DNA from: Candidatus Dojkabacteria bacterium
GTDB lineage: Bacteria > Patescibacteriota > Dojkabacteria > B142 > OLB20
Direction: 5' to 3'
Assembly (NCBI GenBank): GCA_030583785.1
Contig: CP129475.1
Coordinates: 978,209 to 1,042,208 of the forward strand
DNA: 64,000 bases
The notes beneath the pieces are model-generated. The model was not told the origin of the DNA. It did not search any database and was given only the letters and a program-made list of their open reading frames with translations. Below are positions 2,306 to 36,122 of the stretch, in pieces. Numbering within the stretch: the first letter of the stretch is position 1; each line of letters starts with the position of its first letter. A program made the position numbers and the translations under genes.

Positions 2306-3747
2306 ACAAAGAGTTTGAATTTGTGATTGGACTCGAAGTCCATTTACAGGCAAAAACTGAATCAAAAATGTTTTGTAGATGCGCCGCAGATTATTTCGGA
2401 CAAAAACCGAATTCGAGGGTTTGTCCTGTCTGTTTGGGCTTGCCTGGTGCTCTTCCTGTTCCAAATGCACTAGCAGTAAAAAAATGTCTTAGTCTTTGCC
2501 TCGCAACGAATTGTCAAATAAACAAGATTAGTAAGTTTGACCGCAAAAACTACTTCTATCCAGATTTACCTAAGGGATATCAAATATCACAGTATGATTT
2601 GCCACTTGGTGAAAATGGATTCTTAGAATTCGATGTAGACAGCGATTCGCGCAGGGTCAGGATTCGTCGCATTCATTTAGAAGAAGATACTGGAAAATCG
2701 ATGCACACAAACGAAGAAACTTTGCTTGATTTTAATAAGTCCGGAATACCATTAATTGAAATTGTTACAGAACCAGATTTCGTCGATATAGAAGAAGTAC
2801 TGGCCTTTGCTAAAAGATTAAGGCAAACAGTTCGTTACCTTGGCATCAGCAATGCTGATATGGAAAAGGGGCAAATGCGTTACGAACTTAACATGTCGCT
2901 TAGAAAAGTCGGCAGTCAAAAGCTACCCCAGTACAAAGTAGAAGTTAAAAACATCGGCTCAATATCCGTTTTAGAAAAGGTAATAAAGTACGAGTTCGAC
3001 CGACAGGCAGACATTCTTGCTTCTGGTAAGCTTCCAACGCAAGAAACACGAGGTCTTCGTGACTTAAGTGGAAAAACCTACTCGCAAAGAATCAAAGAAG
3101 ACGCAGATGATTATCGATATTTCCCGGAGCCAGATATACCTCCAATGCACTTTTCAGATGAATACCTAGAAGAAATTAAGAGCACTATTTGTGAACTGCC
3201 ACAGGCAAGAAAGCATCGATATGTATTTGATTACAAATTAGAACCCGATACTGCAGAAGTGTTGATAACTTCCAAGGTCCGATCCGATTGGTTTGAAGAA
3301 GCTATTGAGAAGATTAAAGACACAGCCTTAATTAAAGAGATTGCAAAATGGCTGATAAAAGATGTTAACGCCATTATTAAAGAGCAGAAGCTCAAGCTAA
3401 GTGAGCTTAAATTTACTCCCAAGCAGTTCTCTCAATTAGTAGAGATGCTTTATCAGAAGAAACTATCAGGCACTCTGGCAAAACAGGTTTTAGCAGAGAT
3501 GAATTCTACTGGAGATGAACCCGAAGCTATTGTTAATAGAAAGGGACTAAGTATTATGGCAGATGAAACCGAACTGATCAAGGTTATAAAAACAGTCTTC
3601 AAAGATAACGCAAATGTTGTTGGCGATACAAAGAAAAATCCCAATGCCGCCAAGTTCTTATTAGGACAAGTCATGAAGGCCACAAAAGGTAAAGCAGATC
3701 CAGCAGAGAGCGCAAGATTAATCGCAGATTTGTTATCAAAAGAATAA
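2302..3747 (+). CDS. gatB: Asp/Glu-tRNA amidotransferase subunit B
   Basis: N-terminus reads [17 protein letters not shown], and the C-terminus carries a GatB/YqeY domain. Start overlaps the gatA stop (ATGA). Confidence 0.92.
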
Positions 3748-21621: not shown

Positions 21622-22356
21622 ATGAAATTTCAAGTTTCAAAGATTCCACATATAGATGCTGCTAAGCATCTGGCCGGATTGATCAATAAGTCCTTGGCAG
21701 ATGCACAGAATAAGGTATTATTATCACTTGCCGGAGGAAGTGCTGTTGATGTCTATAACGAAGCCGATGCTCTGCTTGATGACACACTAAATTTCTCTAA
21801 TCTATTCGTAGTAATGGGAGATGAAAGATGGAATATTGATCCGATGCACAAAGATTCGGATTGGCTACATTTTACGCAAACATCCCTATATAATTTCTTT
21901 GCCACTCACAACGCTAAGTTGATAAATACTTTACATGGTACAAATCATAAGTCAGAAGCCGCAGAGCTCGACCAACTATTCAAGATAGCCTTAACAGAAG
22001 GCTTTGAAACAATAGCTATGTTGGGAATTGGAGCCGATGGACACACTGCAGGTATACTTCCTGCTGAAAGAGAATTATTTGAGAAGACTTTTAGAAACAA
22101 TGCGCATGCAGTTGCACACGAACTTGACACAGTTTACCCTCAAAGAATTACAATCACTCCTTATACAATAAGTAACATAGACCATGTCTTTGCCTATGCT
22201 AAAGGAGAAGCAAAAAAACATACACTCCAGTTAATTGCTGATCTTGATAAATCTTTTCCCGATAATAAATGGCAAGATAATCTTCATAAATATCCTGCTC
22301 TATTTCTATCTACAGCAGATGCAAAAATATTTACAGATCAATTAATAAGACAATGA
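21622..22356 (+). CDS. pgl: 6-phosphogluconolactonase
   Basis: Motif LGIGADGHTAGILP from the GlcN6P-deaminase/6PGL family. Sits directly upstream of zwf and overlaps its start. Confidence 0.8.
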   Translation: MKFQVSKIPHIDAAKHLAGLINKSLADAQNKVLLSLAGGSAVDVYNEADALLDDTLNFSNLFVVMGDERWNIDPMHKDSDWLHFTQTSLYNFFATHNAKLINTLHGTNHKSEAAELDQLFKIALTEGFETIAMLGIGADGHTAGILPAERELFEKTFRNNAHAVAHELDTVYPQRITITPYTISNIDHVFAYAKGEAKKHTLQLIADLDKSFPDNKWQDNLHKYPALFLSTADAKIFTDQLIRQ

Positions 22357-23791: not shown

Positions 23792-24427
23792 ATGAAGGAA
23801 CATAAATTTGAGATATTTTTTGGAATAGTTTTATTTACGCTGCTCTTGTCTGTAGCAATATTCTTTGCAGGCGGCAAACTGTTAAATAGCGATTCAAATG
23901 ATGATAAACCGAATGTAGTTGTCACTTCGCAGATTATTCTGGACAAGATTAACGACGAAGCCTTTATAGTAACCAAAACCATCTTTTTGGATCAAAAGAA
24001 AACAATAAGAATTGATCAAGGATCTGATTGGTCAAATTTCTGGTGGGGTCAGACAATTACAACCGAAGGGATAATCAGGGTTGACCTTGGAGTGGACTAC
24101 AAGCTTTTATCTGAAAATGACATTGCGATTGACAAAGAAAGTAAAACGATAAGCATCAATGTACCAGAGGCAACAATTTTAGATGCAAGCCTTTTTGGAG
24201 ATCTGAATGTTGAAACAAGTTCTGGAATACTGAGGCAGCTTTTTGCTAGTGATCGGAATAAAGACTATAACCTCGCTTTGCAGTCACTTATAGAAGATGC
24301 ATCTGAGACAATAATCAATAATGAGGAGCTTGTTGCAGAATCTGAAAATGAAAGCTTAAAAATTCTCCAACTTGTGCTTTCTGATCTTGGCTATAGAGTA
24401 GTTTCATCATCTAGCACCGCGGATTGA
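23792..24427 (+). CDS. membrane-anchored hypothetical protein
   Basis: N-terminal TM helix followed by a soluble domain of about 180 aa. Confidence 0.5.
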   Translation: MKEHKFEIFFGIVLFTLLLSVAIFFAGGKLLNSDSNDDKPNVVVTSQIILDKINDEAFIVTKTIFLDQKKTIRIDQGSDWSNFWWGQTITTEGIIRVDLGVDYKLLSENDIAIDKESKTISINVPEATILDASLFGDLNVETSSGILRQLFASDRNKDYNLALQSLIEDASETIINNEELVAESENESLKILQLVLSDLGYRVVSSSSTAD

Positions 24428-24877
24428 CTTTAGATGTCTATGCCAGTTTTGTTTCAGCCATAGATTAGCTTGTTTGTAAGTATCTCCGAGCCCTCGTTTT
24501 TGCATCTCTTTGCGAATCACGCCTCCCTTGTGTGGGTGATCAAATAGTTGTTGCAAAGGTGAATTAAATCCATGGAAATAATGACACATCTCGTGTGCAA
24601 TGGTCCCTTCTACAACATAATCGGGGATTTCAGGATTCTTGAAGTAGCCAGTTACAATAATCATGCTGATTCGTGGATCTTCATATGCTTCTTTAGGGGT
24701 TTCCGCCAATATCTTTTTTAAACCTCTTGTTTCTGCAGAGGCCCATTTGATGCAACCTAATTGTCGAACTGATTTCCTTCCAAAGCTGATTACAACTCTA
24801 TTTAGTCGAGCAACATCTACAAAGTTGTTCTCCCAAAGTTCGTACATTTTTTCGCTTAACCAGGCATTATTTCTCAT
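24407..24877 (-). CDS. SprT-like / DUF45-type zinc metallopeptidase-domain protein
   Basis: HExxH motif IAHEMCHYFHG. The start is probably an internal Met (MRNNAWL), which removes the overlap with the divergent downstream gene. Confidence 0.6.
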   Translation of the reverse strand: MRNNAWLSEKMYELWENNFVDVARLNRVVISFGRKSVRQLGCIKWASAETRGLKKILAETPKEAYEDPRISMIIVTGYFKNPEIPDYVVEGTIAHEMCHYFHGFNSPLQQLFDHPHKGGVIRKEMQKRGLGDTYKQANLWLKQNWHRHLKSIRGAR

Positions 24878-24908
24878 CAATGATCCGCAAGTTTTGTTAT
24901 AGTTTACT

Positions 24909-25610
24909 ATGCGAATAGAAAAATTCAAAAGACAAAGATCAAGAACAAATCTCAAACAGATTTTTTCGATTAAACTTAATTATAAAAGAGTCTTTTCGAT
25001 AGTGATCTTGGCGGGTTTGATCTTTTTGGCGGTTCCATTTACATTGCGCTATATGGTCTTAAGTTCATATACTAACTATATGTATGAAATCGGCGATGAA
25101 ATACCCCCAACTAGGATTGCAATTGTTTTCGGTGCTGGTTTATCAGAATATGCTAATCAACCAAGTCATATCCTTGAGGATCGAATACTCACCGCAATAG
25201 ATCTTTACAAAGCGGGAGTGGTTCAAAAGATTATTATGAGCGGCGACAATCGCTTTGTTGATTATAACGAACCAGAAGTTATGATCAATTATGCTAAAGC
25301 TAGAGGTGTCCGAGATCTAGATTTACAAGCTGACTTTGCAGGAAGAAGAACTTTTGACACCTGTTTAAGAGCAAAAGATGTATTTGGAGTTCACGAAGCA
25401 ATTCTCATAACACAGGAATTTCATCTACCAAGAGCCTTATATGTTTGTAACAGTATAGGTGTTAAATCTATTGGAGTAGTCGCAGACAGAAGAGACTATC
25501 AACAGATTGAATACTTCAGACTGCGCGATACTTTAGCTTTATTGTTAAGCTTTTGGGACTTATATGTAATTAGACCTGAAGTTGTTCCCGGAGAAAGAAT
25601 AATTATATAA
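24909..25610 (+). CDS. SanA/YdcF (DUF218) family envelope protein
   Basis: N-terminal TM helix and DUF218 motifs (IVFGAGL, IMSGDN, TFDTCLRA, ITQEFHLPRA). Confidence 0.7.
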   Translation: MRIEKFKRQRSRTNLKQIFSIKLNYKRVFSIVILAGLIFLAVPFTLRYMVLSSYTNYMYEIGDEIPPTRIAIVFGAGLSEYANQPSHILEDRILTAIDLYKAGVVQKIIMSGDNRFVDYNEPEVMINYAKARGVRDLDLQADFAGRRTFDTCLRAKDVFGVHEAILITQEFHLPRALYVCNSIGVKSIGVVADRRDYQQIEYFRLRDTLALLLSFWDLYVIRPEVVPGERIII

Positions 25611-25757: not shown

Positions 25758-25829
25758 GGGCTGGTAGCTCAATGGTAGAGCAGTTGCCTCTTAAGCAATT
25801 GGTTCCGGGTTCGAGTCCCGGCCAGCTCA
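25758..25829 (+). tRNA. tRNA-Lys (anticodon CTT)
   Basis: Acceptor GGGCTGG pairs with CCAGCTC. Anticodon stem GTTGC/GCAAT with loop CTCTTAA. T-arm CCGGG-TTCGAGT-CCCGG. Confidence 0.85.
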
Positions 25830-25913: not shown

Positions 25914-28900
25914 ATGAGAAAAAAGCGAATGTATATTCCGTTAAATCCTTTGTTAGATGCTCTTCCAGAGATAACTAGAAAAATCAGAGAGATTGAAAAT
26001 AAGATATATATATTATTGATAGCAGTTGTTCTTCTTGGAGGTGTATTTGCGGGAGTTAATGGACTTAATATGTTTGGAGGAATATATGCACAGCAGTTTT
26101 GTCCTCTTCCGGCAGCCCCTGCCAAAGTTCTGTCACTAGTTACAATTACTCCTGATTCTGAAGACGGTGTTGTGGATTGTTCATCTCTAGATATTATTAT
26201 CGGAGCAGGAGGAACAGTTGTCGTTGATAGATATGTAACAGAGAATGGCACAAGCGAGGGTGATTGGGGGGTTACGCTACTTGTTAAGAGTCTTACAGTT
26301 GAAAATGGCGGATTGATCTCTGCCGATGGTAAAGGTTATACAAATACTGATGACGAAGTTGTTAGTGGTAAAGGTGGAAACGCAACTACTACAGCTGGTG
26401 GATCGGGGGGAGCACATGGGGGTGCCGGTGGAGAAGGTTTAGCACCTGTAGGTGGCTCGGCTCCAGTTCCAGGTGTGGCATATGGAACAGAAGAAAATCC
26501 CTCAACTCTAGGAAGTGCTGGAGGCAACAGTTTTGATGGAGGTTTAGGTGGAAATGGAGGTGGATCTATTCGAATTCGAGCCAGTGAATACTTAGTAATT
26601 AATGGACAAATAACTGCTAATGGAGCACAGGGACTCGCTCAAGGGAACAGTTCAGGGGGTGGTGGAGCAGGAGGTAGTATTTGGATTGAAGCAGAATCGT
26701 TTTCTGGGAATGGAATAGTAGAAGCAAAGGGAGGAAGTGCTCAAGAGGTTACATACCAAGGAGGAGGTGGCGGTGGAGGTAGAATTATTATGTTCTGCAA
26801 CTCCTCAAATCTTTTTACTGGCAGTGTGTCTGTTTCTCCAGGAATCACTTCACTTTCTCAAGATGGAGGAATAGGTTCTCGGCTTGGGCCAACCTGCATA
26901 CCAAACGAACCGACTCTACTCAAGCAATTCTCAAAATATGATCCCCCAGGAGCTACTCCTCTACAAACTGTAGAAATCGGCCAAGGTGGTGTCATGCGGA
27001 CAGACAGACTAGATTCTGTGTTGTTTGTTGCCAATATGTCCGATATTGATGTAACGGACACTCTTACACTACAAATTGAAGTCAGACCAATTGGAACAAG
27101 TTTTACTGGAGTTCCAACTCATACTCAGTCAGTTAACATGAGCAATCCTCAGAATTGTTCTAGTCCTCCTTCGGGTTGCGGAACAATAGATATACCAAAG
27201 GCACAACTACCTGCCTCTACAGAGTATCATTGGCAGGCAAGAATAAGAGATAATAGAGGTGGAATAAGTGAATGGACACAATTCGGAAATAATAATGATG
27301 GTGAACGAGATTTCTTAATAACAGGAACACCGACAAATATTCTTCTTGTAAGTGGTGGCAATCAATCAGGCGTTGTCGGTCAGCCATTGGCTAACCCTAT
27401 GTTGGTGCGTGTGCTTGATGCTGCTGGTTATGGTGTACCAGACCAAAGTTTGACTTGGTCAATCCAAAACGGTGGTGGCACTCTTGGGTCACAAACATCA
27501 ATTTCCAATACAGAAGGTGTTGCTCAGAACACCCTAACACTTGGAGTTGTATCCGGAAACAATTCTAACACTGTTCGAGTGAGCGGTGTAGGCTCAGCTT
27601 TAGATATCAATCATTCATCAATCTCAGATGAAGCTGTAAGATTCTCGCTTTCAACGCCAACGGTTGCCATCCGATCAGAAGAATTTACCTTTTCGGTCAT
27701 AGCCTATGACCAATATAATAATATTGCGACCACTTACGATGGTTCTCCCAATCTATCTGTCGTTAATCCATTGAATTATTCACAGACTGTAGGTGGGAAT
27801 TTTGTACCTAGCTCAATTACTTTCCAACTAGGTGATCAAGGGCAAAAGGTGATTAGTAATGCAACCTTTGATACATTGGCGAGTATCGCAATAAAGGTAG
27901 TTGACGGAGATATCTTTGGATATTCAAATGCAATTGCCATTGTTGACACATTGGGGCAGTGTCCAGACGCTGATGGTATTATTGATTCGGGTGGAGACAT
28001 TGTCTGGGAAGCAGGAAATTATCCGGGAGCAATTATTGATTGCAGAGGATTAGACATTGTAGTTAAGTCGTCAAATACATCTCAAGTAACAAATCTTGTT
28101 ATCAGGCCTTCCTTAACTGAATCAGTTCCGGCGACCCTTCTTGCCGATAGTATAACAATAGAAAGTGGAAACTCTCTAAATTCGGACAGAAGAGGATTTA
28201 CTGCAGGTCAAGGACCAGGTACAGGATGTGGAGCAGCTCATGGAGGTTACGGAGTAAGTGTGTCAAACAGAGGAGTGCCGTATGGTTCAGTTAAAGAACC
28301 GGTAACGATGGGATCCGGAGGTTGTACACGAAGTTACTTTGGTAATCTCTCAGTAGGAGGCGAAGGAGGAGGAGCAATCAAAATTGTTTTAACTGGTAAC
28401 CTTGTCGTTAATGGAAGACTTACAGCAGATGGAGGACCGGGAACTAGCAATATAACACAAGGAGCGGTGGGAGCAGGAGGATCACTATGGTTGAGTGCAG
28501 ACAGAATAGACGGTAGCGGACTCATAAGTGCTAACGGAGGAAACAGAGCAGGAGCAGGAGGATCAGGAGGAGGAAGAATAGCCATATACGAGAACAGTAG
28601 AGGAAGTTTTCCAATAACAAACAAGAGTAACATACAGGCATTTGGAGGAGGAGGCGGAAGCTTTGGAGGAGCAGGAACAATATACATAGATGCAGATGGA
28701 CAAAGCGGAGGCAACGGAGATTTATGGATAAACAATAACAATAGAAATACAGAAGCAGCAGGAGTACCATACGATGCAGTAAACCCGGTACAGCAGTTTA
28801 ACAAGATATATCTAAAGGAATACGGACACTTGCAGATAATGGGACTGGATTCGACCTTGGTAATACCAAGCCAAGAAAGTGTTGAAGGTGATAACTCAGC

Positions 28901-31900
28901 TCCAATTTTAGAAGTTATCGGTACTATTCAACTACCTAGTAATTACATTGTAGATAGATATACTCTTTCGATTGCCGGAGATTACACTGGTGCTTCTGAA
29001 TTAATAATAGGTAACGGCAGTAATCCGGCCAATTTAAGACTATATGCGTATAATCAGAAGCGGTACTCTAATAAATCCCCTAACCATGATGTTTATGAAT
29101 TTTCTTCTTTGACAGTCCGTAGTGGTGCATCCCTGTTTCTGTTCTCTTATGATGGTAATGGTTCTGCAAACAATGGCCGAGGACTTCAAGATTATGGGGT
29201 AAGAATAATTGTGGACGAAGACTTTGAGATTGAAGCAGGAGGCTTAGCAACAAGCAATGGAAGAGGTTATGCTACTGCATTGGGACCAGGGACAGGATGT
29301 GGAGCAGGTCATGGAGGTTACGGAGTAAATGTAGCTAACAGAGGAGTACCATATGGTTCAGTTAAAGAACCTGTAACAATGGGATCCGGAGGTTGTACAC
29401 GAAGTTACTATGGTAATCTTTCAGTAGGAGGAGAAGGAGGAGGAGCAGTAAGACTGAATGTAGGAGGAGTACTTAGGGTAGATGGAAGTCTGACAGCAGA
29501 CGGAGGACCGGGAACAAATAACCTAACACAGGGAGCAGTAGGAGCAGGAGGATCACTATGGTTGAGTGCAGACAGAATAGACGGTAGCGGACTCATAAGT
29601 GCTAACGGAGGAAGCAGAGCAGGAGCAGTAGGATCAGGAGGAGGAAGAATAGCCATATACGAGAACAGTAGAGGAAGTTTTCCAATAACAAACAAGAGTA
29701 ACATACAGGCATTTGGAGGAGGAGGCGGAAGTTATGGAGGAGCAGGAACAATATACATAGATGCAGATGGACAAAGCGGAGGCAACGGAGATTTATGGAT
29801 AAACAATAACAATAGAAATACAGAAGCAGCAGGAGTACCATACGATGCAGTAAACCCGGTACAGCAGTTTAACAAGATATATCTAAAGGAATACGGACAC
29901 TTGCAGATAATGGGACTGGATTCGACCTTGGTAATAACAGATGAAGAAGGACTCGAAGGAGACACAACAGTACCAAGATTAGAGCCACAGGGATTAATAA
30001 GTCTACCGGAGAGATTTGTGGTAGACAGAGTAAACCTAGACATTATAGGAGACATAGAAGGAGCAGGAGATTTAGAGATAGGAAATGGAGATGAACCAGC
30101 GGCAGTAACATTGTATGCTTACACACAGAAGAGATACACAGCCAAGAGTCCAAACCACGATGTGCATATACTAGAGAGTTTAATAGTTAGAGACAAATCT
30201 GTACTTAACTTGGTATCTTATGACGGCAACGGGACATACATGAATGCATCTTCACTGTCTGACTATGGAGTAACACTAACACTAGGTCGAGACTTTACAG
30301 TAGAGACTGGAGGAATAGTAACAACAAATGGAAGAGGTTACGCAAGAGGAGCAGGACCTGGGACAGGATGCGGAGCAGCTCATGGAGGTTACGGAGTAAA
30401 TGTGTCAAGTCAGGGAGTACCGTATGGTTCAGTTAAAGAACCGGTAACGATGGGATCCGGAGGATGTTCTAGAGACTACTTTGGGAACTGGTCCTTTGGA
30501 GGAGAGGGAGGAGGAGCAGTAAGACTGAATGTAGGAGGAGTACTTAGGGTAGATGGAAGTCTGACAGCAGACGGAGGACCGGGAACAAATAACCTAACAC
30601 AGGGAGCGGTAGGAGCAGGAGGATCACTATGGTTGAGTGCAGACAGAATAGACGGTAGTGGACTCATAAGTGCTAACGGAGGAAGCAGAGCAGGAGCAGT
30701 AGGATCAAGTGGAGGAAGAATAGCCATATACGAGAATAGTAGAGGAAGTTTTCCAATAACGAACAAGAGTAACATACAGGCATTTGGAGGAGGAGGCGGA
30801 AGCTTTGGAGGAGCAGGAACAATCTACATAGATGCAGATGGACAAAGCGGAGGCAACGGAGATTTATGGATAAACAATAACAATAGAAATACAGAAGCAG
30901 CAGGAGTACCATACGATGCAGTAAACCCGGTACAGCAGTTTAACAAGATATATCTAAAGGAATACGGACACTTGCAGATAATGGGACTGGATTCGACCTT
31001 GGTAATAACAGATGAAGAAGGACTCGAAGGAGACACAACAGTACCAAGATTAGAGCCACAGGGATTAATAAGTCTACCGGAGAGATTTGTGGTAGACAGA
31101 GTAAACCTAGACATTATAGGAGACATAGAAGGAGCAGGAGATCTAGAGATAGGAAATGGAGACGAACCAGCGGCAGTAACATTGTACGCATACACACAGA
31201 AGAGATACACAGCCAAGAGTCCAAACCACGATGTGCATATACTAGAGAGTTTAATAGTCAGAGATAAATCTGTACTTAACTTGGTATCTTATGATGGCAA
31301 CGGGACATACATGAATGCATCTTCATTGTCTGACTATGGAGTAACACTAACACTAGGTCGAGACTTTACAGTAGAGACAGGAGGAGTAGTAACAACAAAC
31401 GGAAGAGGTTACGCAAGAGGAGTGGGACCAGGGACAGGATGCGGAGCAGCTCATGGAGGTTACGGAGTAAGTGTGTCAAGTCAGGGAGTACCGTATGGTT
31501 CAGTTAAAGAACCTGTAACGATGGGATCCGGAGGATGTTCCAGAGACTACTTTGGGAACTGGTCTTATGGAGGAGAAGGAGGAGGAGCAGTAAGACTGAA
31601 TGTAGGAGGAGTACTTAGGGTAGATGGAAGCTTGACAGCAGACGGAGGACCGGGAACAAATAACCTAACACAGGGAGCAGTAGGAGCAGGAGGATCACTA
31701 TGGTTAAGTGCAGACAGAATAGACGGTAGCGGACTCATAAGTGCTAACGGAGGAAGCAGAGCGGGAGCAGTAGGATCAGGAGGAGGAAGAATTGCCATAT
31801 ACGAGAATAGTAGAGGTAGTTTTCCAATAACAAACAAGAGTAATATACAGGCATTTGGAGGAGGAGGCGGAAGCTTTGGAGGAGCAGGAACAATCTACAT

Positions 31901-34900
31901 AGATGCAGATGGACAAAGCGGAGGCAACGGAGATTTATGGATAAACAATAACAACAGAAATACAGAAGCAGCAGGAGTACCATACGATGCAGTAAACCCG
32001 GTACAGCAGTTTAACAAGATATATCTAAAGGAATACGGACACTTGCAGATAATGGGACTGGATTCGACCTTGGTAATAACAGATGAAGAAGGACTCGAAG
32101 GAGACACAACAGTACCAAGATTAGAGCCACAGGGATTAATAAGTCTACCGGAGAGATTTGTGGTAGACAGAGTAAACCTAGACATTATAGGAGACATAGA
32201 AGGAGCAGGAGATCTAGAGATAGGAAATGGAGACGAACCAGCGGCAGTAACATTGTACGCATACACACAGAAGAGATACACAGCCAAGAGTCCAAACCAC
32301 GATGTGCATATACTAGAGAGTTTAATAGTCAGAGATAAATCTGTACTTAACTTGGTATCTTATGATGGCAACGGGACATACATGAATGCATCTTCATTGT
32401 CTGACTATGGAGTAACACTAACACTAGGTCGAGACTTTACAGTAGAGACAGGAGGAGTAGTAACAACAAACGGAAGAGGTTACGCAAGAGGAGTGGGACC
32501 AGGGACAGGATGCGGAGCAGGTCATGGAGGTTACGGAGTAAGTGTGTCAAGTCAGGGAGTACCGTATGGTTCAGTTAAAGAACCTGTAACGATGGGATCC
32601 GGAGGATGTTCCAGAGACTACTTTGGGAACTGGTCTTATGGAGGAGAAGGAGGAGGAGCAGTAAGACTGAATGTAGGAGGAGTACTTAGGGTAGATGGAA
32701 GCTTGACAGCAGACGGAGGACCGGGAACAAATAACCTAACACAGGGAGCAGTAGGAGCAGGAGGATCACTATGGTTAAGTGCAGACAGAATAGACGGTAG
32801 CGGACTCATAAGTGCTAACGGAGGAAGCAGAGCAGGAGCAGTAGGATCAGGAGGAGGAAGAATTGCCATATACGAGAATAGTAGAGGTAGTTTTCCAATA
32901 ACAAACAAGAGTAATATACAGGCATTTGGAGGAGGAGGCGGAAGCTTTGGAGGAGCAGGAACAATCTATGTATTCTCTAGGTCAATAAACCCAGAGGTAG
33001 GTAGTCTTTACTTATTCTCAAATAGAAGCAATATCGATTATTCTGAAGACTTTGTTGCTGGTGAATTCTTCCTACATGATTTAATACTCGATGATGGAGT
33101 AAAAGTAAAATTAAACAGTAATCTAGATGAAGGTTACGGAACAATTTACAACCTGACAGGTGATTTCTATCTAGGAGAAAATTCTCTTATTGATGGGTTT
33201 GCAAGAGGCTATCCTTCAGAGCAGGGACCAGGAGCGGGTCAAACTGGTCTAGGACAATCTGGAGGTGGGGGAGCAGGTCATGGCGGTAGTGGTGGTAATG
33301 GTGAATCTGATGGAGGCAACCCATCTCCCGTTGGAGGACAATTCTATGGAAATCAACGAGAACCTTTAACAGTTGGATCTGGTGGTGGTAGATCAGGTGC
33401 TGGTGCCGCCGGAGGCAGAGGTGGCGGAGCGATTGCCTTAAGAGTTAGAACTGGACATGTAGAAATTAACGGCAATATTGATGTGCGAGGTGAGGCTGGA
33501 CTTATTGCATCTCCAGGTGGAGGCGGAGGCGCTGGGGGGTCAGTTCTAATTGAAGGTCAAACATGTGATATCTCAGGCAATATTTTGGCAAATGGCGGTA
33601 ACGGAGGAGAAGAAGCATTTGATGGAGGTGGTGCAGGAGGCGGAAGGGTGTCAATTCTAACAACCCAGGGACCTTGTGACATTAATGGCTTGGTCGATGT
33701 TAATCAAGGCTCGAGTAGCGGAGGTCAATCTGGACAGGTAGGAACTTATCCAACGCTTGGTACTATCCCTGCAGTTCCAGACTTTCGTGATCAGTTTAAA
33801 ACAGACTCAGTAACTACCATTCCAGTTGGAGGAATAACACAAGAACAGGAAGTAGTTCTAAAAGTTAATATGTCCGACCCCGGAGGGTCTGAATCTAATA
33901 GTATCTCACTTCAAGCTCAATTCGAAGTTGTTAGAGTCGACGAAGAATTTACTGGGGTTGCATTGATATCAAGTGAAAACTTCTTCTTAGCATCAGATAG
34001 TCAAGATGAAGAGTCATCGGTGCTTGGAATATCGACAAGCACAACGGGTAATTATTCAGGTGGTGCGCCCCTACTCGCGGAAGCTAGCATCAGTGATCTC
34101 ATACCTGGAGCCAGTTATAAATGGCGTGCCAGAGTTATTAACCCATCTGAAGGAATATCTGGAACATGGGTAGAGTATGGAGGGAATGGTTCAGATCAAG
34201 CCGACTTTATTGTCAGTACGGTAGAGTCGTTAACCATCGAATCTGATAAATACAATGTTGAAGTTGGAGAGCCAATTACTCTAACTGTAAGTTCTTTGGA
34301 TGAAGATAATCAACTGGATCCATCATATCGAGGAACTGTTCAGTTCATATCTAACTCTGAGACTGCAGTTTTACCGGTTAATTATTCTTACACTTCAATT
34401 GATCAAGGTGTGAAAGAATTTACAGAAGAAACGATTTTTGTTGAACCAGGTGTATATACCATTACAGTCAGAGATACAATCAATGCTCTCTTGCAAGCAA
34501 CAACAGCAGATATAACTGTAACAGGTGATCCCGAGTCTGAAAATAATATTGATCCAGATATTTGTTTGATAGAGCCAAATCGCATCGAATGTCAACAGCC
34601 TGTTAGGATATCGAATGTTAGAATAAGTCTTATAGAAAGAGGATCAGTTAGAATATGTTGGGATACAAATATTGCAACCAGAGGCACGATTAATTATGGT
34701 CTTCTTGAGAACGCTCAATTGACAGATTCTGTTGGCCCCGAATCAACTTATAAAGTAAGAGATCATTGTTTAGATCTAATAGAACTCGATGATCCAGAAG
34801 AATACATATTCAGAATTACAGCGGTATCTTATGCTGGAAGAAGCGCTACATATACAGGAGGTTTCAATACTTTAGGAGAAGTAATCACAGATATTCCCGA

Positions 34901-36122
34901 GGTAAATGCCTGTATATTAACTGATTCAAACTTCTACGCATTAAATGCACAAAATCAGATTGTCTTTAGTTATCGAACTTTGTCGCCAACTAATTGTAGC
35001 TTCACTTATTCACAGACAGGCAGATTCTCAAGAACGAATCAATCACAGGAACAGTTATTGTCGCATCAAACAACAGTTGAACTTAGCGAATTAGCTGCAG
35101 ATATTGATCTTGATTACTTGATAAATTGCAGCGTAGAAAGTATGGATGAATTAATATCTTGTCAGACTGCAGGATCAATTCCTAGCAATGTTTTCTCGGA
35201 TAGATTAAGGTCAGACGGTGAGATTGAACAATCTACACTCCTAAGAACAATAACCGAGTCTGTAGTACCGCTTGTTCTCGTTTCATCTGCATTCGCTCTT
35301 CTTGCCGCCAATACTATTGCTTATCCACAGGTCGGTTTGTACGCACTTGCTTGGATTAAAGATAGAAAACGCTACTTACCTTGGGGTATTGTCTACGACT
35401 CAAGAAATAAAAAACCAATTCCGTTTGCTGTCGTTCGGCTTTATCAGGAAGGAATGCTAGTAGTTGAAAGACTAACTGATATGTCAGGAAGATATGGAAT
35501 GGTGGCTGATCCAGGTAGTTATAATCTGGTTGTCGAGCATACCGACTATGCTCGTATTGCCAGGAAACTGGAAATTACAAAAGAAGATTCAACAGTTAGT
35601 GAAGATTTCGCTCTAAGTATCGGCGAAAATAGCTCTGCCGCAACAAGAACTAAACTAAGAGAGGTCTTAAGAACCATTAATAACCTTGTGGTTTATATCG
35701 GATTTGCGTTTGCGATTGTGATCACAGTCATCTCTCCAGTACTGATTAATTTCTTGGTGTTGGCATTTTATATTGTTCAGTTTGTTATTGTTGCGATTCT
35801 GGAAAATCTATCTAAGCGAAGATGGGGATACATATTTGATTATCAAAGCAAAAGTAGGATTCCTAGAGCCTTTGTGCGCTTGTTTAGCGTTGCTGAAGAA
35901 AGACAAATTGATGTTCAAATCGCGGATGATCAAGGAAGGTATGGATTCTCTGCGGAACCGGGGGAATACAGAATCAAGGTTGATGCAGACAACTATCAGA
36001 TGGCAGGAATCAAAGACGGTTTTCTTAGGGTTAGTATCGATAAGGCCGAGAAACTAAACAAGAATATTGCTATGGAAAGATCTTTGCAGAAAGGTGCAAG
36101 CAAAGGTTTCCTTTCTACCTAG
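25914..36122 (+). CDS. giant (3402 aa) glycine-rich surface protein
   Basis: Signal/TM anchor, then about seven glycine-rich GGAI-type beta-helix-like modules, plus Ig-like (Big) domains. The C-terminus has multi-pass TM segments interleaved with two carboxypeptidase-regulatory-like domains. Confidence 0.85.
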   Translation: MRKKRMYIPLNPLLDALPEITRKIREIENKIYILLIAVVLLGGVFAGVNGLNMFGGIYAQQFCPLPAAPAKVLSLVTITPDSEDGVVDCSSLDIIIGAGGTVVVDRYVTENGTSEGDWGVTLLVKSLTVENGGLISADGKGYTNTDDEVVSGKGGNATTTAGGSGGAHGGAGGEGLAPVGGSAPVPGVAYGTEENPSTLGSAGGNSFDGGLGGNGGGSIRIRASEYLVINGQITANGAQGLAQGNSSGGGGAGGSIWIEAESFSGNGIVEAKGGSAQEVTYQGGGGGGGRIIMFCNSSNLFTGSVSVSPGITSLSQDGGIGSRLGPTCIPNEPTLLKQFSKYDPPGATPLQTVEIGQGGVMRTDRLDSVLFVANMSDIDVTDTLTLQIEVRPIGTSFTGVPTHTQSVNMSNPQNCSSPPSGCGTIDIPKAQLPASTEYHWQARIRDNRGGISEWTQFGNNNDGERDFLITGTPTNILLVSGGNQSGVVGQPLANPMLVRVLDAAGYGVPDQSLTWSIQNGGGTLGSQTSISNTEGVAQNTLTLGVVSGNNSNTVRVSGVGSALDINHSSISDEAVRFSLSTPTVAIRSEEFTFSVIAYDQYNNIATTYDGSPNLSVVNPLNYSQTVGGNFVPSSITFQLGDQGQKVISNATFDTLASIAIKVVDGDIFGYSNAIAIVDTLGQCPDADGIIDSGGDIVWEAGNYPGAIIDCRGLDIVVKSSNTSQVTNLVIRPSLTESVPATLLADSITIESGNSLNSDRRGFTAGQGPGTGCGAAHGGYGVSVSNRGVPYGSVKEPVTMGSGGCTRSYFGNLSVGGEGGGAIKIVLTGNLVVNGRLTADGGPGTSNITQGAVGAGGSLWLSADRIDGSGLISANGGNRAGAGGSGGGRIAIYENSRGSFPITNKSNIQAFGGGGGSFGGAGTIYIDADGQSGGNGDLWINNNNRNTEAAGVPYDAVNPVQQFNKIYLKEYGHLQIMGLDSTLVIPSQESVEGDNSAPILEVIGTIQLPSNYIVDRYTLSIAGDYTGASELIIGNGSNPANLRLYAYNQKRYSNKSPNHDVYEFSSLTVRSGASLFLFSYDGNGSANNGRGLQDYGVRIIVDEDFEIEAGGLATSNGRGYATALGPGTGCGAGHGGYGVNVANRGVPYGSVKEPVTMGSGGCTRSYYGNLSVGGEGGGAVRLNVGGVLRVDGSLTADGGPGTNNLTQGAVGAGGSLWLSADRIDGSGLISANGGSRAGAVGSGGGRIAIYENSRGSFPITNKSNIQAFGGGGGSYGGAGTIYIDADGQSGGNGDLWINNNNRNTEAAGVPYDAVNPVQQFNKIYLKEYGHLQIMGLDSTLVITDEEGLEGDTTVPRLEPQGLISLPERFVVDRVNLDIIGDIEGAGDLEIGNGDEPAAVTLYAYTQKRYTAKSPNHDVHILESLIVRDKSVLNLVSYDGNGTYMNASSLSDYGVTLTLGRDFTVETGGIVTTNGRGYARGAGPGTGCGAAHGGYGVNVSSQGVPYGSVKEPVTMGSGGCSRDYFGNWSFGGEGGGAVRLNVGGVLRVDGSLTADGGPGTNNLTQGAVGAGGSLWLSADRIDGSGLISANGGSRAGAVGSSGGRIAIYENSRGSFPITNKSNIQAFGGGGGSFGGAGTIYIDADGQSGGNGDLWINNNNRNTEAAGVPYDAVNPVQQFNKIYLKEYGHLQIMGLDSTLVITDEEGLEGDTTVPRLEPQGLISLPERFVVDRVNLDIIGDIEGAGDLEIGNGDEPAAVTLYAYTQKRYTAKSPNHDVHILESLIVRDKSVLNLVSYDGNGTYMNASSLSDYGVTLTLGRDFTVETGGVVTTNGRGYARGVGPGTGCGAAHGGYGVSVSSQGVPYGSVKEPVTMGSGGCSRDYFGNWSYGGEGGGAVRLNVGGVLRVDGSLTADGGPGTNNLTQGAVGAGGSLWLSADRIDGSGLISANGGSRAGAVGSGGGRIAIYENSRGSFPITNKSNIQAFGGGGGSFGGAGTIYIDADGQSGGNGDLWINNNNRNTEAAGVPYDAVNPVQQFNKIYLKEYGHLQIMGLDSTLVITDEEGLEGDTTVPRLEPQGLISLPERFVVDRVNLDIIGDIEGAGDLEIGNGDEPAAVTLYAYTQKRYTAKSPNHDVHILESLIVRDKSVLNLVSYDGNGTYMNASSLSDYGVTLTLGRDFTVETGGVVTTNGRGYARGVGPGTGCGAGHGGYGVSVSSQGVPYGSVKEPVTMGSGGCSRDYFGNWSYGGEGGGAVRLNVGGVLRVDGSLTADGGPGTNNLTQGAVGAGGSLWLSADRIDGSGLISANGGSRAGAVGSGGGRIAIYENSRGSFPITNKSNIQAFGGGGGSFGGAGTIYVFSRSINPEVGSLYLFSNRSNIDYSEDFVAGEFFLHDLILDDGVKVKLNSNLDEGYGTIYNLTGDFYLGENSLIDGFARGYPSEQGPGAGQTGLGQSGGGGAGHGGSGGNGESDGGNPSPVGGQFYGNQREPLTVGSGGGRSGAGAAGGRGGGAIALRVRTGHVEINGNIDVRGEAGLIASPGGGGGAGGSVLIEGQTCDISGNILANGGNGGEEAFDGGGAGGGRVSILTTQGPCDINGLVDVNQGSSSGGQSGQVGTYPTLGTIPAVPDFRDQFKTDSVTTIPVGGITQEQEVVLKVNMSDPGGSESNSISLQAQFEVVRVDEEFTGVALISSENFFLASDSQDEESSVLGISTSTTGNYSGGAPLLAEASISDLIPGASYKWRARVINPSEGISGTWVEYGGNGSDQADFIVSTVESLTIESDKYNVEVGEPITLTVSSLDEDNQLDPSYRGTVQFISNSETAVLPVNYSYTSIDQGVKEFTEETIFVEPGVYTITVRDTINALLQATTADITVTGDPESENNIDPDICLIEPNRIECQQPVRISNVRISLIERGSVRICWDTNIATRGTINYGLLENAQLTDSVGPESTYKVRDHCLDLIELDDPEEYIFRITAVSYAGRSATYTGGFNTLGEVITDIPEVNACILTDSNFYALNAQNQIVFSYRTLSPTNCSFTYSQTGRFSRTNQSQEQLLSHQTTVELSELAADIDLDYLINCSVESMDELISCQTAGSIPSNVFSDRLRSDGEIEQSTLLRTITESVVPLVLVSSAFALLAANTIAYPQVGLYALAWIKDRKRYLPWGIVYDSRNKKPIPFAVVRLYQEGMLVVERLTDMSGRYGMVADPGSYNLVVEHTDYARIARKLEITKEDSTVSEDFALSIGENSSAATRTKLREVLRTINNLVVYIGFAFAIVITVISPVLINFLVLAFYIVQFVIVAILENLSKRRWGYIFDYQSKSRIPRAFVRLFSVAEERQIDVQIADDQGRYGFSAEPGEYRIKVDADNYQMAGIKDGFLRVSIDKAEKLNKNIAMERSLQKGASKGFLST
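28140..32965 (+). repeat. about 4.5 tandem copies of a 1071-nt (357-aa) in-frame coding repeat inside the giant gene
   Basis: The GGATCC landmark recurs at 28311, 29382, 30453, 31524 and 32595, exactly 1071 nt apart. Copies 3 to 5 are virtually identical at the nucleotide level. Antisense ORFs recur with the same period. Confidence 0.9.

What the first reader, a model, noticed from the sequence alone, without database searches (positions are those of the whole stretch)
28140..32965. Near-identical 1071-nt tandem coding repeats inside a 10.2 kb giant surface-protein gene
Within the 3402-aa ORF a 357-aa unit recurs about 4.5 times at an exact period of 1071 nt. The GGATCC landmark falls at 28311, 29382, 30453, 31524 and 32595. 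Copy 1 has diverged, whereas copies 3 to 5 and the second half of copy 2 are almost base-for-base identical. That pattern points to very recent expansion or ongoing recombination, or to assembly collapse. Arrays of this kind are typical substrates for copy-number variation of surface antigens or adhesins, and short reads commonly mis-assemble them.
Basis: seen in the sequence. Interest (0 to 1): 0.7.

Follow-up and report, generated by a model that had tools for sequence, protein, structure and literature searches.

The report
Homogenised five-module repeat in giant surface protein
A 10.2 kb gene of an uncultivated ultra-small (CPR) bacterium encodes a membrane-anchored surface protein whose central rod is built from 4.5 tandem 357-residue beta-helix modules; the modules are kept nearly identical by gene conversion while their number stays fixed across the protein family, which is an ordinary mechanism in a well-preserved example.

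Summary
ORF 25914-36122 (3402 aa) holds an in-frame, indel-free array of period 1071 nt from about 28190 to 32968, which is 4.46 copies. Neighbour identity rises from 76.6% to 99.6% towards the 3' end.

The organism is a Patescibacteria/CPR bacterium, 99.65% identical over a 4 kb contig to 'Microgenomates bacterium OLB22'.

The unit has no Pfam or NCBIfam model. It is predicted to fold as a right-handed beta-helix like those of autotransporter and TpsA adhesins, continuous across the unit junction.

Recent expansion and copy-number variation are not supported. The syntenic ortholog in WS6 bacterium OLB20 and 17 distant family representatives all carry the same count: five array cores and four tails. 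Units are more alike within a protein than between orthologs, with no positional orthology. That is concerted evolution at a fixed copy number. A 405-nt conversion tract in copy 1 shows the mechanism directly.

The canonical count argues against assembly collapse here. One contig from another reactor shows a different copy 1/2 junction, so the array sequence varies between populations.

This is a new member of a known kind, of moderate interest.

The parts
25914..36122 (+). Giant gene, 3402 aa. It encodes a predicted membrane-anchored surface protein.
   Evidence: ORF list and translation. It is syntenic with a 10.2 kb ortholog in WS6 bacterium OLB20.
26010..26066 (+). N-terminal hydrophobic segment (aa 33-51), either a signal peptide or a signal anchor, preceded by a basic N-region.
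   Evidence: Kyte-Doolittle scan, score 2.43.
27393..27548 (+). Ig-like domain (weak Big_1 match, aa 494-545) in the N-terminal non-repeat part.
   Evidence: Pfam PF02369, E 4.5e-7, below the gathering score. Ortholog fragments also carry Big_1.
28190..32968 (+). Tandem array of 4.46 copies of a 1071-nt (357-aa) unit, comprising five glycine-rich 'cores' and four 'tails'.
   Evidence: HMM count is 7 cores / 4 tails for the whole protein.
28176..29246 (+). Copy 1 (register used here). It is a mosaic: head about 80% identical to copy 2, centre 98.5%, tail about 50%.
28461..28865 (+). Gene-conversion tract in copy 1, paired with 29532-29936 in copy 2.
   Evidence: 6/405 mismatches inside against 245/666 outside. 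Third-codon-position mismatch is 2.2% inside and 52% outside. The longest mismatch-free run is 202 nt, against a maximum of 55 in 5000 permutations.
29247..30317 (+). Copy 2, 94.3% identical to copy 3. Most differences lie in the first 189 nt.
30318..31388 (+). Copy 3, 97.9% identical to copy 4. This is the unit used for the structure prediction.
31389..32459 (+). Copy 4.
   Evidence: It is identical to the BROCD contig L001 over about 1080 nt.
32460..32968 (+). Copy 5, a partial copy containing the core only. It differs from copy 4 at 2 positions in 506 nt and ends right after the GGAGTIY motif.
   Evidence: The right junction is confirmed at 100% identity by four Logan contigs.
30885..31449 (+). 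Longest exact repeat, 565 nt, identical to 31956-32520.
32969..35261 (+). Post-array ectodomain: a further glycine-rich beta-helix, then Ig/fn3-like domains. It is anciently paralogous to the pre-array part.
   Evidence: aa 168-492 align with aa 2456-2788 at 32% identity. Orthologs carry fn3 and Pur_ac_phosph_N hits.
35262..35801 (+). C-terminal membrane anchor region with three predicted TM helices (aa 3117-3135, 3252-3270, 3278-3296) and a CarboxypepD_reg-like domain between them (aa 3158-3226).
   Evidence: Hydropathy scan. Pfam PF13715, E 4.6e-7.

Best explanation
The array is the central rod of a giant envelope protein of a CPR/Patescibacteria bacterium. The protein has an N-terminal signal or anchor segment, a roughly 3060-residue ectodomain, and a C-terminal anchor of three transmembrane helices.

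Each 357-residue unit has two parts: a glycine-rich core and a less glycine-rich tail. Both are predicted to be turns of one right-handed parallel beta-helix, so the 4.5 units stack into a continuous stiff solenoid. My estimate of its length is about 30-38 nm; this is an inference from the usual 4.8 Å rise per turn and 20-25 residues per turn, not a measurement.

The array is old, and its count (five cores, four tails) is conserved across the protein family. The near-identity in this genome comes from recent, repeated intragenic gene conversion between units. That process leaves copy number unchanged, has homogenised copies 2-5, and has overwritten the centre of copy 1. It does not come from a new expansion.

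Shown here: the repeat, the mosaic conversion tract, purifying selection on the remaining differences, the conserved count, greater similarity within proteins than between proteins, and the predicted fold. Inferred: surface exposure, the rod or spacer and adhesion role, and selection on rod length.
For: Repeat anatomy.

Conversion tract with a sharp boundary at 28865/28866, and saturation at third codon positions outside it.

Differences between copies are mainly synonymous and at third positions (3v4: 17 synonymous against 4 non-synonymous codons; 18 of 23 differences at position 3). They are therefore real, selectively filtered differences, not errors.

Syntenic ortholog (L025, WS6 bacterium OLB20):
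- It has the same neighbours (G6PD, DUF4230, DUF218 ... CsoR, Trx, TrxR).
- It has five cores at about 351-aa spacing and a stitched length of 3402 aa.
- Its units are only 45-66% (cores) and 41-56% (tails) identical to each other.
- They are 39-45% and 29-37% identical to the window's units.
-.

Family-wide evidence:
- 461 representatives match at E <= 1e-30.
- 33 of the 77 entries scored with tail hits (76 representatives plus the window's own protein) have exactly four tails.
- 17 representatives plus the window share the 7-core/4-tail layout, with the first tail at about aa 900-1000, apart from P0175 at 1424.
- Identity within a protein exceeds identity between proteins in 132/136 (core) and 119/136 (tail) pairs.
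- There is no positional orthology: same-position identity 33.4 against different-position 33.1 for tails, and 41.8 against 41.4 for cores.

Another lineage (L027) has the same count, with copies 2-4 100% identical in DNA.

Topology.
Against: No reads were available, so the copy number in this assembly is supported only indirectly, by the canonical count.

Surface location rests on hydropathy and domain analogy. No function has been tested for any family member.

The wider family does contain proteins with 5-8 tails, so the count is not absolutely invariant.

Equal counts in different lineages could in principle arise from contraction and re-expansion under selection for length, rather than from conversion alone.

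Strain-level copy-number variation within this species could not be measured.
Confidence: 0.72

Rival explanations
1. The protein is a variable-length 'Periscope'-type stalk. The near-identical repeats serve as a substrate for frequent unequal recombination, so that copy number, and therefore stalk length, differs between cells and strains. The 4.5 copies seen here would be one allele among several.
For: DNA identity of 94-99.6% over 1071-nt units exceeds the Periscope screen threshold of more than 50 residues and at least 80% identity (PMC8201768; PMC9704523). The array sequence does differ between populations: L001 joins the copy 1 tail to a head of copy 5 type, with only about 2 nt shared at the switch point, so it cannot be a k-mer chimera of the window's structure. 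The wider family includes members with 5-8 tails.
Against: The count is the same in the syntenic ortholog, in 17 distant representatives, and in another fully homogenised lineage. The L001 difference is equally well explained by conversion of the copy 2 head. No contig with a different count was found.
Confidence: 0.15
2. A very recent expansion took place. An ancestor with one or two units duplicated them within this lineage, and divergence has simply not yet had time to accumulate.
For: Identity rises steadily towards the 3' end (76.6, 94.3, 97.9, 99.6%), as serial duplication at one end would produce.
Against: The five-core/four-tail layout, including the terminal half unit, is shared with orthologs whose units are old (45-66% identical in the cores). 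Copy 1 is a mosaic of very old and very young segments, which duplication alone cannot produce. The stitched protein length equals that of the ortholog.
Confidence: 0.08
3. An assembly artefact is present. The true array has more (collapsed) or fewer (over-expanded) copies, or consensus polishing has exaggerated the near-identity of copies 3-5.
For: The exact repeats reach 565 nt. Every short-read assembly of this species breaks at the array. A collapsed-loop contig exists (L001, whose last ~55 nt repeat its own offsets 25-79). A third homolog has a 100-N scaffold gap inside its array.
Against: The window has the canonical count and the same stitched protein length as the ortholog. The differences between copies are biased towards synonymous changes, so they are not noise. 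Both junctions and the copy 4/5 sequences are reproduced in independent assemblies at 99.9-100%.
Confidence: 0.05

Closest known systems
Periscope Proteins (SasG, Rib, Sgo_0707 SHIRT, ShdA PATR repeats; Whelan et al. 2021, PMC8201768; review PMC9704523)
   Same: Both are surface-attached proteins with a tandem array of long repeats that are highly identical at the DNA level. The repeats encode a folded, rod-forming module. Intragenic recombination is favoured by the DNA identity, and short reads cannot resolve such arrays.
   Different: The unit here is 357 aa, against about 50-165 aa for typical Periscope domains. It is a stretch of continuous beta-solenoid rather than a separate domain on a linker. 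The defining repeat-number variation was not found: the count is conserved across the family. The anchor is a set of C-terminal transmembrane helices, not LPXTG or an outer-membrane barrel.
Beta-helical adhesin passengers of type V secretion (autotransporters UpaB, Pet, pertactin, Ag43, Fap2; TpsA proteins FHA, HMW1, EtpA)
   Different: There is no sequence-family match. There is no C-terminal beta-barrel translocator and no N-terminal TPS domain. The host is a CPR bacterium, a group generally regarded as lacking an outer membrane (my own knowledge, not tested here). Sequence identity in the structural alignments is only 7-23%.
Concerted evolution of intragenic tandem repeats by gene conversion (the general phenomenon)
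   Same: Units are more alike within a gene than between orthologs. Mosaic conversion tracts have sharp borders. Copy number is preserved.
   Different: Nothing differs in the mechanism. The notable point is how strictly the five-core count is kept across very divergent members.
AgmC N-terminal domain (NCBIfam NF047640, adventurous gliding motility protein of Myxococcus)
   Same: Both contain glycine-rich beta-helix-like repeats. There is a weak match to aa 142-299 of the pre-array region.
   Different: The score is 30.6 bits against a cut-off of 275. The match lies outside the array, so this is not a member.

Membership tests
Periscope Proteins | [quoted passage not shown] | tested here: met
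   Units are 357 aa. Over the 190-aa cores, copies 2-4 are 92-98% identical in protein; copy 5, whose 190-aa window runs past the array edge, is 83-91% identical to them. Tails of copies 2-4 are 99-100% identical. DNA identity between neighbouring copies 2-5 is 94.3-99.6%.
Periscope Proteins | Cell-surface attachment | tested here: inconclusive
   Predicted only. There is an N-terminal hydrophobic segment and three C-terminal TM helices, plus Ig-like and CarboxypepD_reg-like domains. There is no LPXTG motif and no experimental localisation.
Periscope Proteins | Repeat number differs between homologues | tested here: not met
   The count is five cores and four tails in the window, in the syntenic OLB20 ortholog, in 17 distant representatives, and in the fully homogenised L027. 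Only more remote family members have 5-8 tails.
Periscope Proteins | Repeat number differs between closely related strains or within a population | not testable with these tools
   All same-species assemblies are broken at the array, and no reads were available. L001 shows sequence variation at the copy 1/2 junction, not proven count variation.
Periscope Proteins | The repeats form an elongated rod-like stalk | tested here: met
Right-handed parallel beta-helix fold (pectate-lyase-like / adhesin passenger-like) | Stacked coils of short beta-strands that superpose on known beta-helices | tested here: met
Type V autotransporters | C-terminal outer-membrane beta-barrel translocator domain | tested here: not met
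   There is no Pfam autotransporter hit. The C-terminus has alpha-helical TM segments and CarboxypepD_reg-like domains.
Two-partner secretion TpsA proteins | N-terminal TPS (haemagglutination activity) secretion domain | tested here: not met
   There is no such Pfam or NCBIfam hit on the whole protein at E <= 0.1.
Diversity-generating retroelement target (variable repeat / template repeat) | Adenine-specific differences between repeat copies, and a nearby reverse transcriptase | tested here: not met
   The substitution spectrum is not A-biased, and most differences are at third codon positions. None of the 30 neighbouring ORFs scanned has a reverse-transcriptase hit.
AgmC_N (NF047640) | Score at or above the curated cut-off of 275 bits | tested here: not met
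   30.6 bits, at aa 142-299, outside the array.

The most novel reading that the evidence does not exclude
The five-core beta-solenoid may act as a length-calibrated 'molecular ruler' that is conserved across a large, unnamed family of giant envelope proteins in CPR and other bacteria. On this reading, selection fixes the number of modules, for example to span a defined envelope-to-partner-cell distance in an episymbiont. Gene conversion repeatedly erases divergence between the modules. The result would be a surface-protein repeat class that is the opposite of Periscope proteins: high DNA identity without length variation.
Probability: 0.3. Interest if true: 0.55.

Novelty: new member of a known kind. 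Interest (0 to 1): 0.38.

Why it matters
Giant surface proteins are among the few candidates for how ultra-small CPR bacteria attach to partner cells (my own knowledge, not tested here). They are routinely broken or lost in metagenome assemblies.

This locus gives an intact example of one. It also delimits a 357-residue beta-solenoid module that Pfam and NCBIfam do not describe, although 461 cluster representatives match it at E <= 1e-30.

Near-identical repeats here do not signal copy-number plasticity: the module count is conserved while the sequence is homogenised. That is a practical warning for annotation. Fragments of this gene end up on short contigs and can be mis-binned, as with the fragment filed under a Chitinophagaceae MAG. 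High repeat identity should also not be read automatically as antigenic length variation.

Tried and rejected
- Tandem Repeats Finder found nothing because the period exceeds its 500-nt limit.
- Pfam and NCBIfam have no model for the unit.
- A profile of the unit with its homologues has no sequence relative among solved structures.
- The word-indexed homologue search returned only partial hits of 43% identity or less, because glycine-rich words saturated the candidate list. The exhaustive HMMER search was needed to reach the family.
- Megablast of the array against the plasmid collection found no match.
- A scan of JGI metagenome contigs for close relatives found nothing.
- The exact product of the giant gene is not on record in the assembly index.
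- The diversity-generating-retroelement idea was rejected: there is no A bias and no reverse transcriptase.
- Positional orthology of the diverged copy 1 with unit 1 of orthologs was looked for and not found.
- Antisense ORFs inside the array (28334-28804, 29732-30055, 30824-31216, 31895-32287, minus strand) recur with the repeat in the glycine-rich region. I set them aside without testing them.
- Literature searches for OLB20/OLB22 gave nothing specific.
- I could not estimate copy number from the coverage of the collapsed contig L001 (cov 41.6), because the coverage of the flanking contigs was not available.
Full report
**1. The observation**

The window carries one 10,209-nt ORF, 25914..36122 on the plus strand, encoding 3402 aa. 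GGATCC occurs at 28311, 29382, 30453, 31524 and 32595, spaced exactly 1071 nt apart.

A self-comparison at a shift of 1071 nt rises from background identity (about 0.25-0.3) at about 28190. It returns to background after 31897/32968. The array therefore spans about 28190-32968, which is 4.46 units of 357 codons. It is in frame and has no indel in any copy.

With unit starts at 28176 + 1071k, nucleotide identities between neighbours are:
- copies 1v2: 76.6%
- copies 2v3: 94.3%
- copies 3v4: 97.9%
- copies 4v5: 99.6% (506 nt compared)

Tandem Repeats Finder is silent only because its maximum period is 500. The longest exact repeat is 565 nt.

Two refinements apply. Copy 1 is a mosaic rather than uniformly diverged. 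In copy 2, the differences from copy 3 are concentrated in the first 189 nt.

**2. The differences between copies are real, and the pattern is gene conversion**

Differences between copies fall mostly at third codon positions and are mostly synonymous. For 3v4, 18 of 23 differences are at position 3, giving 17 synonymous and 4 non-synonymous codons. For 2v3 the counts are 29 synonymous and 17 non-synonymous codons. Sequencing or polishing noise would not look like this.

Between copies 1 and 2, a 405-nt tract (28461-28865) has 6 mismatches. The remaining 666 nt have 245. Third-position mismatch is 2.2% inside the tract and 52% outside. The longest mismatch-free run is 202 nt, against a maximum of 55 in 5000 permutations. 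A young segment embedded in an old copy, with a sharp border, is the signature of gene conversion.

The substitution spectrum shows no adenine bias, and none of the 30 neighbouring ORFs scanned has a reverse-transcriptase hit. A diversity-generating retroelement is therefore ruled out.

**3. Organism and context**

A 4034-nt contig of 'Microgenomates bacterium OLB22' (LLEV01000004) aligns to 31747-35769 at 99.65% identity. The organism belongs to the Patescibacteria (CPR) group.

The neighbouring genes are housekeeping genes: GatA/GatB, RecJ, SHMT, FolD, G6PD, 6-phosphogluconolactonase, thioredoxin and thioredoxin reductase, Dus, trigger factor, RecF and a Clp ATPase. tRNA-Arg and tRNA-Lys lie just upstream of the giant gene.

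**4. Other assemblies of the same species**

Exact-protein look-ups with the two flanking genes found 32 contigs carrying them, from NCBI MAGs and Logan assemblies of public runs, and returned 20. None crosses the array.
- Four Logan contigs from four different runs (L016, L017, L019, L022) are 100% identical to the window. All end at 32939, exactly 30 nt inside the right edge. That is what a k=31 graph does at a repeat.
- Left-flank contigs end at 28321 (L005) and 28375 (L004).
- OLB22 holds the array only as fragments (L002, L003).
- A 1350-nt metaSPAdes contig (L001, coverage 41.6) is filed in a Chitinophagaceae MAG. It is a collapsed loop whose last ~55 nt repeat its own offsets 25-79.

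L001 also joins the copy 1 tail to a unit head identical to the window's copy 5 head, not to the window's copy 2 head. Only about 2 nt are shared at the switch point, so it cannot be a graph chimera of the window's structure. The array sequence therefore differs between reactor populations.

**5. What the protein is**

Hydropathy analysis gives an N-terminal hydrophobic segment (aa 33-51) and three C-terminal TM helices (aa 3117-3135, 3252-3270, 3278-3296).

Pfam gives only weak hits: Big_1 (aa 494-545), CarbopepD_reg_2 (aa 3158-3226) and a transthyretin-like NOMO domain (aa 3315-3362). Neither Pfam nor NCBIfam matches the 357-aa unit. The pre-array part (aa 168-492) is anciently paralogous to the post-array part (aa 2456-2788), at 32% identity.

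Structure predictions and fold searches gave the following.
- One unit: pLDDT 71.6, pTM 0.74, all short beta-strands.
- Two units: pLDDT 74.2, pTM 0.75, with pLDDT 83-95 across the unit junction.

I infer that the array forms one continuous solenoid rod of roughly 30-38 nm. This rests on the usual beta-helix rise per turn and was not measured.

The protein is not an autotransporter or a TpsA protein. It has no barrel domain and no TPS domain.

**6. Comparison across genomes**

The C-terminal 1050 aa found a syntenic ortholog in candidate division WS6 bacterium OLB20 (P0045, locus L025). It has the same neighbours on both sides.

That 10.2-kb region also holds five cores, at 1044-1056-nt spacing. 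Stitched across two frameshifts it gives 3402 aa, the same length as here.

Its units are old. Cores are 45-66% identical and tails 41-56% identical within OLB20. Between the two genomes they are only 39-45% and 29-37% identical, and copy 1 shows no preference for unit 1.

An exhaustive HMMER search with one unit found 3720 cluster representatives at E <= 1e-3 and 461 at E <= 1e-30. The top hits are proteins of 2.6-4.6 kaa with 5-8 matched stretches.

I built HMMs for the core and the tail from these sequences and counted the modules.
- 33 of the 77 entries scored with tail hits (76 representatives plus the window's own protein) have exactly four tails.
- 17 representatives plus the window share the same layout: seven glycine-rich cores, five of them in the array, and four tails, with the first tail at about aa 900-1000 in all but one (P0175, at 1424).
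- Identity between units of one protein ranges from about 45% to 100%.
- Among 17 canonical members, identity within a protein exceeds identity between proteins in 132/136 pairs for cores and 119/136 for tails.
- Same-position identity equals different-position identity: 41.8 against 41.4 for cores, and 33.4 against 33.1 for tails.

This is concerted evolution at a fixed copy number.

A JGI contig (L027, protein P0170) shows the same count at a 1146-nt period, with copies 2-4 100% identical in DNA. A partial Microbulbifer protein (P0298) is homogenised in the same way. A third homolog (L024) has a 100-N scaffold gap inside its array.

**7. Interpretation**

The array is an ancestral architectural element. 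Its near-identity in this genome reflects recent and probably continuing gene conversion.

It is not a new expansion. The canonical count and the identical stitched protein length also argue against assembly collapse here, although only reads can prove that.

The closest named concept is the Periscope Protein class: long, highly identical DNA repeats that encode rod-like stalks of variable length (PMC8201768; PMC9704523). This protein meets the repeat-identity criterion and, by prediction, the rod criterion. It fails the defining criterion of length variation at the level of homologues. Strain-level variation could not be tested.

It works like a beta-helical adhesin stalk, and the mechanism that keeps its units alike is ordinary intragenic gene conversion.

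**8. Verdict**

I class it as a new member of a known kind. It belongs to an undescribed but widespread module family. The strictly conserved five-core count is its most interesting aspect.

Noticed in passing
L025:5986 and L025:~10000 (WS6 bacterium OLB20, JYNZ01000007): The syntenic ortholog of the giant gene is split into three ORFs (1151, 1211 and 928 aa) by two single-base frame changes. Both are reproduced at 100% identity in an independent Logan contig (L026, SRR29904086). It could be a recent pseudogene, a gene split into three parts, or programmed frameshifting.
   Followed up: partly
L001 (JACFNA010000386.1, 1350 nt): A collapsed-repeat contig from this CPR gene is deposited in a MAG labelled Chitinophagaceae bacterium BROCD012. 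This is probably a binning error, possibly caused by its raised coverage (cov 41.6).
   Followed up: partly
L028:3018-19181 (JGI 3300069644): One related genome carries two giant paralogs of this family head to tail (P0166, 3387 aa, followed by P0171, 3384 aa).
   Followed up: no
L008:1110-1985 vs window 25758-25829: A Logan contig follows the window up to the first ~47 nt of tRNA-Lys. It then continues into a different T-arm and a T2SSE-type ATPase gene. This is most likely a k-mer chimera between two organisms that share the 5' half of the tRNA, rather than a rearrangement.
   Followed up: partly
L004:5851-6740 vs window 21622-22356: In MAG GCA_019454465.1 the 6-phosphogluconolactonase gene, a single 244-aa ORF in the window, is called as two ORFs of 120 and 142 aa. 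The aligned pieces overlap around that point, which suggests a local indel or an assembly error there.
   Followed up: no
window 35262-36119 (aa 3117-3402): The C-terminal anchor has an unusual layout: TM helix, CarboxypepD_reg-like domain, two TM helices, then a second transthyretin-like domain. With the ectodomain outside, this would place the beta-sandwich domains on the cytoplasmic side. The same Pfam domains recur in homologs (P0046, P0076, P0157).
   Followed up: no
window 24407-24955 (-) and 24909-25610 (+): A 182-aa minus-strand ORF with no family match overlaps the start of the DUF218 gene by 47 nt. Related assemblies call it as 156 aa, so the TTG start listed here is probably too far upstream.
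   Followed up: no
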